Of a stretch of DNA of 64,000 nucleotides, positions 46,898 through 62,068 are shown piece after piece. Below the pieces are notes generated by a model. That model worked only from the letters and a program-made list of their open reading frames with translations, was not told the origin of the DNA and did no database searches. The DNA is from Salmonella phage vB_SenS-3: sequence record OR896822.1. The stretch is one strand, 5' to 3'. How positions within the stretch are numbered: the stretch's first letter is position 1; every line of letters starts with the position of its first letter. The position numbers were made by a program, and so were the translations under genes.

Positions 46898-47326
46898 TTA
46901 AGCAGTTAAACCTGGGATCATATACCCGAAACGACGAAGTTTCTGAATCCCCTCATTTACTTCCTCGGGCGAATATGACCAGCCCTCACGTTCATTTACC
47001 TGGAAAGCAGGAGCTTCACCAGTGCGATAGTTTACAATAAGACGGTGATTTGCAGGCATAAACAGCTTATGGTTCAAGGCAAAAACCAGACCCATTTCAT
47101 CGAGTTCTTTCCAGTCTACAATTTCTTCTACTCCCCCACCTAAATCCACGCTAACTCCAATACACGGAGCTTCCTCTAGTGGGCCTTTAAAAGACAGGAA
47201 GATATCGTTATTCTCACACCAAATCTTAAGCAGATTGATGGTTTCATTGTACATACCATTAGGGAGAGAACGCCAGAAGTTGAGGAGCATAGGATTTACC
47301 TCTTTCATGAAAATATTATTGAACAT
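46898..47326 (-). CDS. hypothetical protein (paralog pair member A)
   Basis: 142-aa ORF; start 2 nt after upstream stop; homologous to the downstream ORF. Confidence 0.5.
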   Translation of the reverse strand: MFNNIFMKEVNPMLLNFWRSLPNGMYNETINLLKIWCENNDIFLSFKGPLEEAPCIGVSVDLGGGVEEIVDWKELDEMGLVFALNHKLFMPANHRLIVNYRTGEAPAFQVNEREGWSYSPEEVNEGIQKLRRFGYMIPGLTA

Positions 47327-53037: not shown

Positions 53038-53066
53038 TTGCAAAATGACCCAAAACAAAGTAGAAT
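53038..53066 (+). promoter_or_regulatory. sigma70 promoter for nrdA
   Basis: TTGCAA-17-TAGAAT; overlaps the ORF-track N-terminal extension, supporting the later start. Confidence 0.55.
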
Positions 53067-53104
53067 ATTTCCTAAATCCTGATAACTACAAAAAGGAAAG
53101 CCAA

Positions 53105-55435
53105 ATGAGCCATCGCATCGAAAAAGTAATTAAACGTGACGGTACTGTTCAGGACTTTGCTCCTGAAAAACTCAATGATTGGGCTGCATGGGCATGTAAA
53201 GATACTGACGTAAGTTGGTCTGCCGTAGTTATGGCTGCCCTGAAAAATCTACCCAAAGGTGTTGTAGACTCCGATACACTCCAAGATGTGTTAATTAAAG
53301 CCGCTGAAGGTCTTATCAAAGACAACCCAGCATATGATACTGTAGCAAAGGAATTACGTCTTGCGCAGATGCGTAAACGCCTATATGATTCCTTTGAACC
53401 TCCTTCTCTGCGTTTCTTCCACGATCATATGATTCGTGTTGGCGCCTGGGAAGACATGAGTGCATGGATTAGCGATGATCAGTTTGATGCTCTGAATCAA
53501 GTTATTGATCATGATCGCGATCGTTTATTCACCAGTGGTGGACTGAAACAGTTCTTCGACAAGTATTCCCGTCGTAATATTGCAACTGGTGAAATTTATG
53601 AAACCCCGCAGTTTGCCTACATGGGTATGGCAATGGCGATGTTATCTCAACCTAACTGGACAATTCTCGATGCAATCGACCTCTACAACGCAATGTCACT
53701 CCATAAAATCAACGTGCCGACTCCACCTCTCGTGGGTCTTAGGAGCAGCGACCGCGGTTTTGCTTCTTGTTGTCTTGTTGATAGTACTGATACCCTCGAT
53801 TCAATCGACACAGCCGAGCACATCGTCTTCAAAATGGTCGCAGCCAGAGCGGGAATCGGGTATCATCTTGAAAGCCGATCAATTGCTGATCCGGTGCGAA
53901 ATGGGGCATTCCCGCATTCCGGAAAACTGCCATATTATCGACACATTGACCGATCAGTAAAAGCTAACACTCAGCAAACCCGTGGTGGTTCTGCTACTGT
54001 GTCTTACCCATACTTCGATCCTGAAATCATTCAGTTGATGCAGGTTAAGCAGCAACGTGCTACAGACGAGAATAAAATCGATAAGATGGATTACTCTCTG
54101 AGCTTTAACAACCTTCTGTTAAAACGTTACCTGAAAAATGAAGATATTACGCTAATGTCCTACTTCTACGCACCAGAAGTTCATGAAGCGTTTTATGGCG
54201 AAGATGAGGCTAAGTTTGAAGAAATCTACGTGGCAGCGGAGAAACGTGTGGCATCTCTTACAAAGATCGACCACGAAGGAAAAACAATTCCAGCAGCTCC
54301 TAGAATCTCTGCAAAAGAAATCCTAGATACTTGGTTACGTATCCGTATGGAAACAGGGCGTATGTATGCTCATCACATTGGTGAATCTAACCGTCATGGT
54401 AACTTCCTTGACCCGATTCGTATGACCAACCTTTGTGTTGAAATTACTCAGCCAACCCGTCCATTCCATCACATTACGGAGCTGTATAAGACCCAAGATC
54501 AGTTAGACGATATGCGTCCAGAAGATATTGGTGAAGTATCTCTGTGTAACTTAGGTGGTGTTGTACTAGGTCGTATGGAATCTCTGGCTGAATGGGAGAA
54601 AACTTGCTACATTCTTCTGAAATTCGTTGATACAATCATCGAGATTCAGGATTACCCATTCCCAACTATGGAGTACACGGCTAAGAAACGTCGTAACGTT
54701 GGTATTGGTCTGATGAACGCAGCAGGTGCAATGGCAGCAGAAGGTTTGGCTTACGAAGGTGTTGAAGCCCGTAACTGGATTCACCGTGAAGCTGAAAAGC
54801 TGTCCTACTTCCTACATAAAGCCTCTGTACGTCTGGCTAAAGAACAAGGTGCATGTGACTGGTTTAATCGTACTAAGCCTTCGCAAGGAACTCTGGTAAT
54901 CGACACGTACAAGAAAACTGTTGATGAACTGGTAACTGTAGGTCTAGAAATGGATTGGGAATCTCTGCGTGCAGATATTCTGAAATATGGTATGCGCAAC
55001 TCTGTTCTGACTGCTCAGATGCCAGGTGAAAGTTCCTCTGTACTGCTAGGTGTTACTAACTCTATCGAACCGCCCCGTAAGATCGTATCTATCAAGGGTA
55101 GTGCAGTGAATAAAGTAATTGCAATTGCTCCAGGTGCAACTGATTGGGATACATTAATGAGCTATAAACTGGCTTATGATGTAGATCGTATCGAGTGGAT
55201 CAAATGGGTAGCAACCATGCAGAAATTATTCAGCCAGTCTATCAGTACGAATATGTACTATGACTACACCAAGTTCGAGAATGAAATCATTCCCGGCCCA
55301 GTAGTAGTTCGTGACTTTATGACTGCTGTTAAGTACGGTTGGAAAACTTGGTACTACGCTAACTTCAACACTGAAAATGGTGGTGGAGCTGGTGAAGAAG
55401 CAGCAGGTTGTGCATCAGGTGGTTGTAACCTATAA
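53105..55435 (+). CDS. nrdA: ribonucleoside-diphosphate reductase alpha subunit (class Ia)
   Basis: ATP-cone start MSHRIEKVIKRDG; uninterrupted 776-aa frame; AAGGAAAG RBS; C-terminal Cys/Gly-rich tail. Confidence 0.85.
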   Translation: MSHRIEKVIKRDGTVQDFAPEKLNDWAAWACKDTDVSWSAVVMAALKNLPKGVVDSDTLQDVLIKAAEGLIKDNPAYDTVAKELRLAQMRKRLYDSFEPPSLRFFHDHMIRVGAWEDMSAWISDDQFDALNQVIDHDRDRLFTSGGLKQFFDKYSRRNIATGEIYETPQFAYMGMAMAMLSQPNWTILDAIDLYNAMSLHKINVPTPPLVGLRSSDRGFASCCLVDSTDTLDSIDTAEHIVFKMVAARAGIGYHLESRSIADPVRNGAFPHSGKLPYYRHIDRSVKANTQQTRGGSATVSYPYFDPEIIQLMQVKQQRATDENKIDKMDYSLSFNNLLLKRYLKNEDITLMSYFYAPEVHEAFYGEDEAKFEEIYVAAEKRVASLTKIDHEGKTIPAAPRISAKEILDTWLRIRMETGRMYAHHIGESNRHGNFLDPIRMTNLCVEITQPTRPFHHITELYKTQDQLDDMRPEDIGEVSLCNLGGVVLGRMESLAEWEKTCYILLKFVDTIIEIQDYPFPTMEYTAKKRRNVGIGLMNAAGAMAAEGLAYEGVEARNWIHREAEKLSYFLHKASVRLAKEQGACDWFNRTKPSQGTLVIDTYKKTVDELVTVGLEMDWESLRADILKYGMRNSVLTAQMPGESSSVLLGVTNSIEPPRKIVSIKGSAVNKVIAIAPGATDWDTLMSYKLAYDVDRIEWIKWVATMQKLFSQSISTNMYYDYTKFENEIIPGPVVVRDFMTAVKYGWKTWYYANFNTENGGGAGEEAAGCASGGCNL

Positions 55436-58069: not shown

Positions 58070-58072
58070 CAT

Positions 58073-58426
58073 ATGTTAATTATACTATTATTTGTCATAT
58101 TCTTTCTAAAACATTTTATGGCCGATTATCCACTCCAAACACCATATATGCTAAGAAAGACGCATAAAATAGGGTGGAAACTTCCATTATTAACCCATTC
58201 GCTAGTACATGCTGGATTAACATTTGCAATTCTAATCCTATTCACATCACCAGGAATGTCTATAGCTTTAGCTATTATGGAATTAATTCTACACTTTATT
58301 ATAGATTATTGGAAAGCACAACGCTGTAAATACGCTATAAGCGATGCTAAGTTTTGGATAGCTTTAGGATTTGATCAGTTACTGCATTATCTGACATACG
58401 CCCTAATAATCTTGATTATAATCTAA
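58073..58426 (+). CDS. hydrophobic membrane protein
   Basis: 117 aa with at least three hydrophobic helices. Confidence 0.45.
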   Translation: MLIILLFVIFFLKHFMADYPLQTPYMLRKTHKIGWKLPLLTHSLVHAGLTFAILILFTSPGMSIALAIMELILHFIIDYWKAQRCKYAISDAKFWIALGFDQLLHYLTYALIILIII

Positions 58427-58431
58427 TTCAA

Positions 58432-58456
58432 ATAGCCCTTCGGGGCTATTATATTT
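58432..58456 (+). terminator. rho-independent terminator
   Basis: Hairpin ATAGCCC-TTCG-GGGCTAT followed by TATATTT. Confidence 0.6.
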
Positions 58457-58465
58457 AAATTTCAT

Positions 58466-58494
58466 TTGCTTACTGAGTGAAATTCAAATATAAT
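58466..58494 (+). promoter_or_regulatory. T5 early-type promoter
   Basis: TTGCTT-17-TATAAT. Confidence 0.6.
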
Positions 58495-58524
58495 ATACTT
58501 CTAATTTGACAGAAGGATTTAATA

Positions 58525-59103
58525 ATGACAGCCATAGTAGCATTTAAATATAAAGATAAAGTATACTTAGCTGGTGATCGTATGGGTTCTAATGGCTATA
58601 CGAAACTGCTGGTTAAAAATCCGAAAGTATTCAAAATCTCTGATGATTTGTACTTCGGATACACTAGTTCCTTCTACATGGGACAATTACTAGAGCATAG
58701 CTTTACTGTACCACCACGTTTAGCAGATATTTCCGATGATAAATATTTATATACGGAAATAGTACCTAAATTACGTGATATGTTTAACCAGAAAGATTTT
58801 GGCGAAAAGAAAAATGAAAAATATGCTGAACCTAATCTGGGACAATTTATTATGCTCTACAAAGGAAGAATCTTTATTTTCCAATCTAATGCTTCTATTC
58901 TAGAAGTTGAATATGCCGGTGTAGGCTGTGGAGGAGAAGATGTACTTTCCAGTATTCGTACAGGTTTAGCTATTGCGGATTGTCGAGCCACAGATTTAGA
59001 TGTAGATGATATATTTGAAATCATTGATCTGGCTTTTACGCATTGTGCAGATTATATGTGTGGTGTATCTTCCCAACATGATGTTTTAGTAATTGGAGAA
59101 TAA
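58525..59103 (+). CDS. HslV/proteasome-beta-like Ntn-hydrolase family protein
   Basis: 192 aa; N-terminus MTAIVAFKYKDKVYLAGD (Thr at position 2, cf. HslV MTTIVSV...AGD); GVGCGGEDV resembles HslV GSGG motif; from memory. Confidence 0.5.
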   Translation: MTAIVAFKYKDKVYLAGDRMGSNGYTKLLVKNPKVFKISDDLYFGYTSSFYMGQLLEHSFTVPPRLADISDDKYLYTEIVPKLRDMFNQKDFGEKKNEKYAEPNLGQFIMLYKGRIFIFQSNASILEVEYAGVGCGGEDVLSSIRTGLAIADCRATDLDVDDIFEIIDLAFTHCADYMCGVSSQHDVLVIGE

Positions 59104-59105
59104 AT

Positions 59106-60289: not shown

Positions 60290-60805
60290 ATGGCTAAGCA
60301 GAAAAACGCAAAAACTCAGGCAGCTCCGGCAGTTAAAACTTTCGCTCAGACCGAAGCCAATCGTAAGGCTCGTCTGGAACGTCATCTGCGTAAGCATCCT
60401 ACTGATGCTCAGGCTCAGACTGCCCTGAAGTCTGCGGCTCCGGTTCGCCAGAAGCCGAAGGCCAAGAACTCTACTCGCGCAACTGCTAAGCAGGTTGTGT
60501 TCATCAAGGGTGAAGGTCATAAGTCTGTACCGGTAACTCTGAGCTTTAACGGTGGTGCTGAGATGTTCGCCCGCAACGGTATGGCTCTGAAAGACTACGA
60601 AAAAGCAGTCAATCAGAAGCGTAAGCCAATGGCTGACGTAATGCGTGAATCGCGTGGACAGTTTGGCTCCGTTAAACCGAATATCTTCGGTGTAGAGTAC
60701 AGCCGTGACAACGTTCGCGCTCTGTGCTACGGTATCGGTATTAAGTTTACTGGTGCTTCTGATCGTAAATCCGCTAAACCTACTCGTAAGCGTAAAGCGA
60801 AGTAA
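60290..60805 (+). CDS. basic Lys/Arg/Ala-rich protein, possibly abundant nucleic-acid-binding protein
   Basis: 171 aa; strongly optimised codon usage; own promoter and downstream hairpin; function inferred only from composition. Confidence 0.5.
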   Translation: MAKQKNAKTQAAPAVKTFAQTEANRKARLERHLRKHPTDAQAQTALKSAAPVRQKPKAKNSTRATAKQVVFIKGEGHKSVPVTLSFNGGAEMFARNGMALKDYEKAVNQKRKPMADVMRESRGQFGSVKPNIFGVEYSRDNVRALCYGIGIKFTGASDRKSAKPTRKRKAK

Positions 60806-61366: not shown

Positions 61367-62068
61367 ATGAAATTCAAGCCCTTTGGTATGCTGGACATTG
61401 AATCTCTAGGTACTCCAGGAAATTGCGGTACTACTCATATTGCAATGCCTTCTTTCGCTTTTGTAGCGATGCACGGAATTGATAAAGATCCTGATCTGGT
61501 ATTCGTTACTCTAGACGTTCAAGATCAGCTTAATGCGGGTGCTAAGGTAACTGCCTCTACTATTGCATTCTGGATGGATCAAGCTAAAAACAGTCCATCT
61601 GCGCTCCATATTATGGAGGCTCTAAATGGTCGTAATCCTAAACTGATTGCCTTCCGTGATGGTAAGCATCACTGCACTAATGACGTAGGCTCTAATTATG
61701 CTGCCTTCTCTATGGCTCAGAACATTATGGAATTGTCTCTAGGAGATAATGCTCTGTATTATGGCAATGGCCCAGAGTTTGATATGACAATCTACTCTGC
61801 AAATACGTTCCATGCCGGAACCCATGAAGAAATAGTTCCGTGGAAATTCTGGAACTTAGGTAACGTTCGATCTTTCCGTAATCAGTGGATGCAAGCTGGT
61901 TATAGCTATAAAGATCTAGAAGCCGAAGGTGCTAGCTGGGCAAAAGCTAAAATGGAAAAGATGGACACCATTCGTTATGGAATCTATCCTGTGAAGCATG
62001 ATCCAGCATTCGATGCTTTAGTTGAAAGTTATTGTGTAGCCGTCATGATCGAAAAAATCAAAATTTGA
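61367..62068 (+). CDS. putative DEDDh-type 3'-5' exonuclease-like protein
   Basis: N-terminal MLDIESLGT (Exo I DxE motif) and C-terminal KHDPAFDALVESY (Exo III H-x4-D motif); middle motif less clear. Confidence 0.45.
   Translation: MKFKPFGMLDIESLGTPGNCGTTHIAMPSFAFVAMHGIDKDPDLVFVTLDVQDQLNAGAKVTASTIAFWMDQAKNSPSALHIMEALNGRNPKLIAFRDGKHHCTNDVGSNYAAFSMAQNIMELSLGDNALYYGNGPEFDMTIYSANTFHAGTHEEIVPWKFWNLGNVRSFRNQWMQAGYSYKDLEAEGASWAKAKMEKMDTIRYGIYPVKHDPAFDALVESYCVAVMIEKIKI

What the first reader, a model, noticed from the sequence alone, without database searches (positions are those of the whole stretch)
58525..59103. HslV/proteasome-beta-like Ntn-hydrolase gene without a partner ATPase
The N-terminus MTAIVAFKYKDKVYLAGD with Thr directly after the initiator Met, and the later GVGCGGED, recall the HslV/20S beta-subunit fold in which Thr1 is the nucleophile. 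No HslU-like AAA+ gene is adjacent. A phage-encoded stand-alone proteasome-like peptidase could hijack host HslU or ClpX-like unfoldases, or act in host takeover.
Basis: partly seen in the sequence, partly recalled or inferred. Interest (0 to 1): 0.55.

Follow-up and report, generated by a model that had tools for sequence, protein, structure and literature searches.

The report
Stand-alone proteasome-like peptidase, T5-like phage

Summary

It is not HslV proper. The NCBIfam HslV equivalog models do not match it, and no unfoldase is found nearby, in the annotated EPS7 genome, or next to relatives. By size, helices and taxonomic spread (Streptomyces, alpha-proteobacteria, phages) it best fits the "AAH" cluster of Fuchs et al. 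2021. That cluster has no known function.

The window is an Epseptimavirus (EPS7-like). The protein is 100% identical to GenBank ACB97546.1, which RefSeq names "peptidase HslV family". The gene is an optional cassette behind a conserved early promoter in the thy-rnh slot. That slot is empty in T5, and in phage beppo the gene is exactly replaced by an unrelated 84-aa ORF.

Verdict: observation confirmed, interpretation supported, already known as a kind, substrate unknown. The idea that it hijacks host HslU is untested and rather disfavoured.

The parts
58431..58450 (+). Hairpin (8-bp stem AATAGCCC / GGGCTATT, UUCG loop) followed by an A/T-rich tract. It is a likely intrinsic terminator that closes the thyA-DUF3307 unit just upstream of the peptidase promoter.
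   Evidence: RNA fold gives -12.2 kcal/mol, z -4.4 against shuffles. The simple consensus scan did not flag it because the T-run is imperfect. BF23 carries an annotated terminator at the homologous place.
58466..58494 (+). Sigma-70-type promoter: -35 TTGCTT (58466-58471), 17-nt spacer, perfect -10 TATAAT (58489-58494). It is probably an early promoter that drives the peptidase gene, the 89-aa ORF and rnh.
   Evidence: Read. It falls below the scan's -35 threshold. The segment 58424-58500 is 81-90% identical to the thy-rnh intergenic region of T5 and BF23, which is annotated there as a promoter (T5 record 46937-47011). Promoter activity is inferred, not shown.
58512..58517 (+). Ribosome-binding site GAAGGA, 7 nt upstream of the ATG.
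   Evidence: Read from the sequence.
58525..59103 (+). CDS of the 192-aa proteasome/HslV-like (family T1) N-terminal-threonine peptidase, with stop codon.
   Evidence: 100% identical to GenBank ACB97546.1 of phage EPS7.
58528..58530 (+). Codon for Thr2 (mature Thr1), the predicted nucleophile once the initiator Met is removed.
   Evidence: Invariant in 144 of 144 aligned relatives. 160 of 167 fetched homologues begin with Met-Thr.
58576..58578 (+). Codon for Asp18 (mature Asp17) of the catalytic triad.
   Evidence: Invariant, 144 of 144.
58624..58626 (+). Codon for Lys34 (mature Lys33) of the catalytic triad.
   Evidence: Invariant, 144 of 144.
58657..58692 (+). Family signature G45-Y-T-S-S-F-Y-M-G-Q-L-L56. 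Gly45 aligns with the oxyanion-hole Gly (HslV Gly45, 20S Gly47). The remainder starts helix H1 and is specific to this family.
   Evidence: G45 occurs in 143/144, S49 in 138/144, and G53 and Q54 in 133/144 each. hhalign places Gly45 on the HslV 'AGF' Gly. This motif alone retrieved 444 bacterial and 457 viral relatives.
58924..58932 (+). Codons for G134-C135-G136. This is the active-site G-S-G loop (20S Gly128-Ser129-Gly130), with Cys in place of Ser.
   Evidence: G134 occurs in 144/144 and G136 in 143/144. Position 135 is Cys in 71, Ser in 62 and Ala in 6 sequences. It aligns to 'IGSGG' of HslV.
58501..59094 (+). Limits of the exchangeable cassette. This exact segment (5' UTR plus nearly the whole ORF) is replaced by an unrelated 84-aa ORF in Epseptimavirus beppo. 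It is missing in phage ende, and the slot is empty in T5.
   Evidence: In blastn of the window against beppo, ende, T5 and BF23, homology stops at 58500 and resumes at 59095.

Best explanation
The gene encodes a catalytically competent N-terminal-threonine peptidase of the proteasome/HslV superfamily (MEROPS family T1). It belongs to the phage-associated 'group I' proteasome homologues and most probably to the AAH type of Fuchs et al. 2021. It is not HslV itself.

Proposed mechanism, step by step:
1. Host RNA polymerase transcribes the gene early in infection from a conserved sigma-70 promoter that it shares with the downstream 89-aa ORF and RNase H (inferred).
2. The protein is made without a propeptide. 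Host deformylase and methionine aminopeptidase remove fMet and expose Thr1 with a free alpha-amino group (inferred from the Met-Thr start and the known MetAP preference for small P1' residues).
3. Thr1 O-gamma attacks peptide bonds with the help of the Lys33/Asp17 pair, the Gly45 oxyanion hole and the G-C-G loop (conservation shown, chemistry inferred by homology).
4. It probably assembles into a homo-oligomeric ring or double ring like HslV and BPH (not tested).
5. It works without a dedicated unfoldase. It would therefore act on peptides, unfolded or loosely folded proteins, or one specific host or phage protein that is still unidentified.

It is a dispensable accessory gene, not part of the core T5-like programme.

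For: Catalysis. M1, T2, D18, K34 and G134 are invariant, and G45 and G136 are at least 99% conserved, across 144 sequences of about 30-94% identity. 160 of 167 homologues start Met-Thr.

Family placement. 2402 cluster representatives reach E<=1e-3. Bacterial relatives are 177-195 aa and lie mostly in Streptomyces, alpha-proteobacteria, Myxococcota and some Firmicutes, and 457 viral contigs carry relatives. This matches the published description of AAH: compact, with H1-H4, most abundant in Actinobacteria, and present in many phages (PMC8665760).

No partner. No AAA+ gene lies within 5 kb, none is annotated in the parts of the EPS7 genome I read, and no neighbour family is conserved across 83 viral or 80 bacterial loci.

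Accessory status and early promoter. The slot is empty in T5, differently filled in BF23, and exactly swapped in beppo. The promoter segment is conserved and is annotated as a promoter in T5. A 51%-identical homologue sits in the same slot in Erwinia phage KEY.
Against: No experiment exists for this protein or, as far as the searchable literature shows, for any member of its cluster. BPH, a solved relative, showed no activity in standard assays even though it bound epoxomicin (PMC5777263), so 'peptidase' may be too simple a label. Oligomeric state, Met removal and substrate are all inferred. The Ser129 equivalent is Cys, and the equivalents of 20S Asp166/Ser169 are not conserved in the family, so the fine chemistry may differ. 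Assignment to AAH rests on description-level features, because I could not obtain the AAH reference sequence WP_035979212.
Confidence: 0.7

Rival explanations
1. HslU hijack. The phage protein forms HslV-like rings that dock onto host HslU, or poison or compete with host HslV. This would redirect the host ATP-dependent protease toward substrates useful to the phage.
For: HslV is the best sequence-profile match among solved structures. The hosts, E. coli and Salmonella, have HslUV (general knowledge). The phage encodes no unfoldase of its own.
Against: The NCBIfam HslV equivalog models TIGR03692 and NF003964 give no hit at E<=1. The middle third, comprising helices H1/H2 and the following loop, does not align to HslV in the profile search. 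HslV Lys28, which by my recollection of the HslUV crystal structures binds the HslU C-terminal carboxylate, aligns to Leu in the query and is a variable position in the family. The linker after H2 is about 18 residues (median 16 in the family), whereas in HslV it is 'merely a short linker' carrying the Arg86/Arg89/Lys90 cluster (PMC5777263). The family thrives in Streptomyces; Table 1 of Fuchs et al. 2021 lists no HslV for Actinobacteria.
Confidence: 0.1
2. A specialised enzyme that does not degrade proteins. It could be a sequence-specific transpeptidase or ligase like archaeal connectase, a single-site processing protease, or an amidase acting on a small molecule or a nucleotide-linked amide.
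Confidence: 0.12
3. A pseudo-enzyme or decoy. The protein would be kept for binding (for example sequestering a host factor) or as a structural component, and would have no catalytic role.
For: No activity has been demonstrated. Ser129 is replaced by Cys, and the Asp166/Ser169 equivalents are not conserved.
Against: Thr1, Asp17 and Lys33 are strictly invariant, and the oxyanion and G-x-G glycines are nearly so, over 144 sequences with a mean column identity of 23%. That is the signature of selection on catalysis. The gene lies in the early region, and the phage has its own head-maturation protease among the structural genes.
Confidence: 0.05

Closest known systems
[quoted passage not shown]
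   Same: Both are compact subunits of about 180-190 aa with the S1-S11 core and both helix pairs H1-H4, without the C-terminal S12/H5 elements and without a propeptide. Both have Thr1/Asp17/Lys33. Relatives are most abundant in Actinobacteria and alpha-proteobacteria and occur in many phages and some Firmicutes. Neither has a conserved genomic context or a co-occurring AAA+ partner.
   Different: Membership is inferred from the published description only. I could not compare with the AAH reference sequence or alignment. The T5-like branch has Cys instead of Ser in the G-S-G loop, Ala instead of the commoner Cys after Thr1, and a slightly longer loop after H2 (19 residues against a median of 16).
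HslV (ClpQ), the peptidase of the bacterial HslUV ATP-dependent protease
   Different: Identity is only about 16-20%. The protein fails both NCBIfam HslV equivalog models. There is no hslU. The H1/H2 region and the pore loop are not alignable or are longer. The Lys28 equivalent is not conserved, though that stretch of the alignment has low confidence. RefSeq's name 'peptidase HslV family' describes the superfamily resemblance, not orthology.
BPH (Betaproteobacteria proteasome homologue; PDB 5OVS, 5OVT, 5OVU)
   Different: The BPH pore loop is strongly acidic, whereas the loop here is mixed Lys/Glu with net charge near 0. The family motif GYTSSF(R/Y)MGQLL is not reported for BPH. Its profile E-value is weaker than for HslV. 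BPH's heptameric double ring cannot be checked here.
[quoted passage not shown] 2021)
   Same: Both are phage-borne group I proteasome homologues without an ATPase. Longer relatives of the query (301-388 aa, for example in Pseudoalteromonas phage J2-1) carry an unassigned C-terminal extension, as described for RPC.
   Different: PPH is described as about 140 residues and lacking helix H2. The query has 192 residues and a confident H2 at 71-89.
20S proteasome beta subunits (archaeal, actinobacterial, eukaryotic)
   Different: There is no propeptide, no alpha-subunit partner and no C-terminal H5. The NCBIfam 20S models score only 12-15 bits against cut-offs of 190-224.

Membership tests
Peptidase family T1 / Pfam PF00227 (proteasome-beta-like Ntn hydrolases) | Profile match above the curated threshold over the whole domain | tested here: met
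   38.5 bits against a gathering score of 22.4. Residues 2-189 match profile positions 5-188 of 189.
Peptidase family T1 / Pfam PF00227 | Alpha-beta-beta-alpha sandwich fold shared with solved members | tested here: met
Peptidase family T1 / Pfam PF00227 | N-terminal Thr nucleophile with Asp17 and Lys33 | tested here: met
   T2, D18 and K34 are invariant in 144 relatives. No upstream start codon is possible.
Peptidase family T1 / Pfam PF00227 | Oxyanion-hole Gly47 and the Gly128-Ser129-Gly130 loop | tested here: inconclusive
   The three glycines are conserved at 143-144 of 144. Ser129 is Cys in the query, and Cys 71 / Ser 62 / Ala 6 in the family. The Asp166/Ser169 equivalents are not conserved.
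Peptidase family T1 / Pfam PF00227 | Actual removal of Met1 and peptidase activity | not testable with these tools
   This needs intact-mass spectrometry and activity or inhibitor-labelling assays.
HslV (ClpQ) proper | Match to the NCBIfam equivalog models TIGR03692 (cut-off 157.75) or NF003964 (cut-off 137) | tested here: not met
   The query gives no hit at E<=1. A distant family member, P0015, reaches only 26 bits.
HslV (ClpQ) proper | A co-encoded HslU AAA+ partner | tested here: not met
   None lies within 5 kb. None is annotated in the 106,999 of 111,382 bases of EPS7 that I read. None recurs next to relatives.
HslV (ClpQ) proper | HslU-docking residues (Lys28, which binds the HslU C-terminus; role recalled from the HslUV crystal structures) and a short basic pore linker (Arg86/Arg89/Lys90) | tested here: not met
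   Lys28 aligns to Leu29 of the query, a variable column, but this part of the hhalign alignment has low confidence. The linker after H2 is about 18 residues with mixed charge (PMC5777263).
HslV (ClpQ) proper | Dodecamer of two hexameric rings | not testable with these tools
   Only monomer prediction is available here.
AAH cluster (Fuchs et al. 2021) | Compact group I architecture: S1-S11 core, helices H1-H4, no S12/H5, no propeptide, no insertions | tested here: met
   The model shows H1 50-59, H2 71-89, H3 137-153 and H4 160-177, a last strand at 185-190, and nothing beyond.
AAH cluster (Fuchs et al. 2021) | Taxonomic distribution: most abundant in Actinobacteria, also in alpha-proteobacteria, many phages and Firmicutes | tested here: met
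   Of the best 80 of 444 genomic relatives, 34 are Streptomyces. The rest include Azospirillum, Mesorhizobium, Devosia, Myxococcota and Bacillales. 457 viral contigs carry relatives.
AAH cluster (Fuchs et al. 2021) | Sequence clustering with the AAH reference WP_035979212 or the AAH alignment | not tested
PPH cluster (Fuchs et al. 2021) | About 140 residues, with helix H2 missing | tested here: not met
   The query has 192 residues, with H2 present at 71-89 at pLDDT above 95.
Connectase | Monomeric, lacks H1/H2, has a two-helix insertion between S3 and S4 | tested here: not met
Anbu | A long C-terminal H5 that forms coiled coils | tested here: not met
Known anti-phage defence proteins (PADLOC) | Match to any PADLOC model | tested here: not met
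   No hit at E<=1.

The most novel reading that the evidence does not exclude
The phage proteasome homologue could be an ATP-independent protease that targets one host protein early in infection, for example an immunity or stress-response factor. That would make it a new class of proteolytic counter-defence or host-takeover factor. The thy-rnh slot would then be an exchangeable accessory-gene hot spot, since other T5-like phages carry YbiA/NADAR-type, GTP cyclohydrolase II or small unknown genes there. A related variant is that it teams up with a host unfoldase other than HslU.
Probability: 0.12. Interest if true: 0.75.

Novelty: already known. Interest (0 to 1): 0.3.

Why it matters
Phage-borne proteasome homologues are widespread. 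None has a known substrate or role, and their bacterial cousins in Streptomyces and alpha-proteobacteria are equally unexplained. This copy is useful mainly as a model. It sits in phages that grow on E. coli K-12 and Salmonella (the BASEL phages IrmaTschudi and TrudiRoth carry copies 99-100% identical). It has natural near-isogenic relatives in which exactly this ORF is swapped or absent (beppo, ende). Its hosts have clean hslU, hslV and clpX knock-outs. The question of what an unfoldase-less proteasome homologue does could therefore be tested directly here. As a discovery it adds nothing new: the sequence has been public since 2008, it is annotated, and its family was described in 2021.

Tried and rejected
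1. Conserved partner search in bacteria. I clustered all ORFs within 4.5 kb of 80 bacterial homologues. No family is shared by more than 3 genera, only Azospirillum is syntenic, and Streptomyces contexts vary. My first crude gene caller failed on high-GC DNA, so I repeated the analysis with six-frame ORFs.

2. Conserved partner search in phages. Across 83 viral loci in 33 target groups, the commonest neighbours are PhoH (5 groups), portal (4), capsid, methylase, HNH, thyA and dCMP deaminase (3 each). There is no unfoldase and no universal partner.

3. A second proteasome-like gene in the window. An HMM of the family, E. coli HslV and the L004 second homologue were each searched against all window ORFs. 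Only 58510-59100 matched.

4. The 89-aa downstream ORF as an obligate partner. Rejected, because it is present in beppo and ende without the peptidase.

5. The DUF3307 membrane gene as a co-cassette. Rejected, because beppo keeps it while lacking the peptidase.

6. The 84-aa replacement ORF as a remnant of the peptidase. Rejected, because there is no similarity.

7. Covariation between Cys at position 3 and Cys/Ser at position 135, which would point to an obligatory active-site thiol. There is none: 16 of 144 sequences have neither.

8. Prohead protease role. Rejected, because the gene lies in the early region and EPS7 has its own head-maturation protease among the structural genes.

9. Defence-system membership. 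No PADLOC hit.

10. C-terminal extensions of long homologues. No Pfam domain.

11. Literature search for any functional study of phage HslV-like, PPH or AAH proteins. I found only genome notes and the 2021 bioinformatic survey.

Full report
OBSERVATION. The ORF is real. It runs from 58525 to 59103 on the + strand, is ATG-initiated and encodes 192 aa, beginning MTAIVAFKYKDKVYLAGD and holding GVGCGGED at residues 132-139. The frame is open for only five codons upstream and holds no alternative start, so the protein must begin Met-Thr and cannot carry a propeptide. A GAAGGA ribosome-binding site lies 7 nt upstream. Upstream genes are nrdA, nrdB, dihydrofolate reductase, thymidylate synthase and a DUF3307 membrane protein. 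Downstream are an 89-aa ORF of unknown function, RNase H and further small unknowns. None of these is an AAA+ protein.

WHAT GENOME THIS IS. The region is 99.3-99.4% identical in DNA to Epseptimavirus phages (EPS7, Salmonella phage 3-29, OSY-STA and others), which are T5-like siphoviruses of the Demerecviridae. The protein is 100% identical in more than 100 phage records. These call it variously 'hypothetical protein', 'protease', 'proteasome subunit-like protein' or, in RefSeq, 'peptidase HslV family'. The exact sequence is GenBank ACB97546.1 of EPS7, and UniRef names it 'ATP-dependent protease'.

An exhaustive phmmer search found 2402 cluster representatives at E<=1e-3, and 160 of the 167 sequences fetched begin Met-Thr. 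In a 144-sequence alignment with 23% mean column identity, M1, T2, D18, K34 and G134 are invariant. I4, F36, G45, S49, G53, Q54, P63, G106, G136 and V181 are at least 90% conserved. In mature numbering these are Thr1, Asp17, Lys33, the oxyanion glycine, and the two glycines of the G-S-G loop. The serine of that loop (Ser129 in 20S) is Cys in this phage and is split across the family: Cys 71, Ser 62, Ala 6. The equivalents of 20S Asp166/Ser169 are not conserved. The motif G-Y-T-x-S-F-(R/Y)-M-G-Q-L-L at the start of H1 is family-specific and was selective enough to retrieve relatives from whole collections. This pattern argues strongly for selection on catalysis and against a pseudo-enzyme.

NOT HslV ITSELF. 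The NCBIfam HslV equivalog models (cut-offs 157.75 and 137 bits) do not match the query at all, and the 20S models reach only 12-15 bits. The profile-to-HslV alignments cover the N-terminal 47 residues and the C-terminal 75, but not H1/H2 and the following loop. HslV Lys28 binds the HslU C-terminus, by my recollection of the HslUV crystal structures; I could not find this in the searchable papers. It aligns to Leu29 of the query, in a variable column and a low-confidence stretch of the alignment. The linker between H2 and the next strand is about 18 residues (family median 16) with mixed charge. In HslV it is described as a short linker carrying Arg86/Arg89/Lys90, and in BPH, which has no unfoldase, as a long acidic loop (PMC5777263).

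No unfoldase is annotated in the parts of the EPS7 genome I read, 1-106,999 of 111,382 bases. No neighbour family is conserved next to relatives in 83 viral loci, where the commonest are PhoH, portal, capsid, methylase, HNH, thyA and dCMP deaminase, each in at most 5 of 33 groups. The same holds in 80 bacterial loci.

WHICH KNOWN CLUSTER. Fuchs, Alva and Lupas (2021; PMC8665760) surveyed proteasome homologues and defined 'group I' as HslV, BPH, AAH, CPH, PPH, RPC and DPH. AAH is described as compact, with H1-H4 and without S12/H5. It is most abundant in Actinobacteria, also found in alpha-proteobacteria, and present in many phages. PPH is about 140 residues and lacks H2. The authors found no informative gene context, no AAA+ partner and no function for any of these clusters. 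The bacterial relatives retrieved here are 177-195 aa. They come mainly from Streptomyces (34 of the best 80), then Azospirillum, Mesorhizobium, Devosia, Myxococcota, Paraburkholderia and a few Bacillales. That distribution, the size and the four helices fit AAH and exclude PPH. I could not compare directly with the AAH reference sequence, so this assignment is an inference. That paper's Table 1 lists no HslV for Actinobacteria, so the family as a whole cannot depend on HslU.

GENE ANATOMY AND POPULATION GENETICS. An 8-bp hairpin with a UUCG loop (58431-58450; -12.2 kcal/mol, z -4.4) follows the DUF3307 gene. A TTGCTT-17-TATAAT promoter (58466-58494) then precedes the peptidase gene (read; below the -35 threshold of the scan). 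The segment 58424-58500 is conserved at 81-90% identity in T5 and BF23, where it is annotated as a promoter between thy and rnh.

The ORF behaves as a cassette. In T5 the slot is empty. In BF23 it holds a hypothetical gene and an HNH endonuclease. In other Tequintaviruses it holds genes annotated 'swarming motility protein YbiA' or GTP cyclohydrolase II. In the Epseptimavirus beppo, homology to the window stops at 58500 and resumes at 59095, and an unrelated 84-aa ORF lies between. Phage ende lacks the DUF3307 gene as well. Roughly 125 phage records carry a copy that is at least 90% identical, out of about 200 that match the region at Epseptimavirus-level DNA identity. A 51%-identical homologue occupies the same slot in the distant Erwinia phage KEY. 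The gene is therefore old in this subfamily but dispensable.

MECHANISM. What is shown: the fold, the Met-Thr start without a propeptide, invariance of the catalytic residues, absence of a cognate ATPase, cassette behaviour, and homology of the upstream segment to an annotated T5 promoter. What is inferred: early transcription; removal of fMet by host enzymes to free Thr1; Thr1-based peptide-bond hydrolysis; assembly into rings by analogy with HslV and BPH; and action without a dedicated unfoldase on peptides, unfolded proteins or one specific target. The rivals are HslU hijack (about 0.1), a specialised ligase, processing enzyme or amidase (about 0.12), and a pseudo-enzyme (about 0.05). They are weighed in the structured fields.

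NOVELTY AND VERDICT. The sequence has been public since 2008 and is annotated as an HslV-family peptidase in RefSeq. Genome papers have noted that phages carry HslV genes without HslU (PMC7823757). The family was catalogued in 2021. What remains unknown is the biology, because no member has a substrate or a phenotype. Interest is therefore modest, and lies in the value of this copy as a tractable model rather than in discovery.

Noticed in passing
Outside the window: EPS7 record NC_010583.1 22918-23517 (locus L168, minus strand): The same phage type also encodes a 199-aa ClpP-like peptidase (Pfam CLP_protease 30.8 bits, cut-off 20.2; annotated 'ATP-dependent protease'). It likewise has no ClpX/ClpA-type ATPase annotated in the genome. 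These phages therefore carry two chambered-protease-type subunits and no unfoldase.
   Followed up: partly
L004 8001-8552 and 8568-9455 (metagenomic phage contig, Logan SRR34340287): A 40%-identical relative of the query is followed immediately by a second, different proteasome-like gene of 295 aa. It starts (L)TTIIY.., has GDGR and AIGSGS motifs, and carries a C-terminal extension of about 140 aa. It is closer to E. coli HslV (30 bits) than to the query (6 bits). The tandem pair could form a hetero-oligomer. The same pair recurs in L005.
   Followed up: partly
Window 58070-59105 and the homologous thy-rnh slot in T5-like phages (L002, L003, L170, L172): The thy-rnh interval is a hot spot for accessory genes behind a conserved promoter. 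It is empty in T5. It holds a hypothetical gene plus the HNH endonuclease hegE in BF23. In other Tequintaviruses it holds genes annotated YbiA 'swarming motility' (DUF1768) or GTP cyclohydrolase II. In Epseptimaviruses it holds either an 84-aa proline-rich ORF or the peptidase.
   Followed up: partly
Window 58073-58426 (+): This is a 117-aa multi-pass membrane protein (Pfam DUF3307, 46 bits; PHROG 2470 'membrane protein', moron/host-takeover category). It is itself variable: present in beppo and absent in ende. It ends with a strong UUCG hairpin.
   Followed up: partly
Window 61367-62068 (+): This 233-aa protein is annotated 'putative metallopeptidase' in EPS7, BF23 and KEY. It actually matches the Rv2179c-like 3'-5' exoribonuclease domain (Pfam, 31.9 bits) and a PHROG exonuclease family (E 2.6e-52). 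T5 calls its homologue an exonuclease. This is probably a propagated mis-annotation.
   Followed up: partly
Window 53045-55435 (+) versus EPS7 locus L001 1758-4279: nrdA is a single intact 796-aa ORF in the window. In the EPS7 record the large RNR subunit is annotated as a shorter CDS followed by an HNH homing endonuclease (F-TflVI), so homing-endonuclease content differs between near-identical phages.
   Followed up: no
L006 4001-5167 (Pseudoalteromonas phage J2-1); proteins P0077, P0033, P0039, P0046: Some relatives are 301-388 aa. They have the peptidase domain at the N-terminus and an acidic linker followed by a C-terminal domain with no Pfam match, reminiscent of the 'RPC' cluster. In J2-1 the gene lies next to PhoH and RNR genes.
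   Followed up: partly
L007 3633-4130 (Vibrio phage henriette 12B8): A phage-encoded peptide deformylase lies three genes upstream of the proteasome-like gene. Deformylation is a prerequisite for exposing an N-terminal Thr nucleophile, but this may be coincidence.
   Followed up: no
Window 60290-60805 (+): This 171-aa basic protein matches Pfam DUF7022 very strongly (266 bits) and PHROG 4516. It is conserved across T5-like phages and its function is unknown.
   Followed up: no
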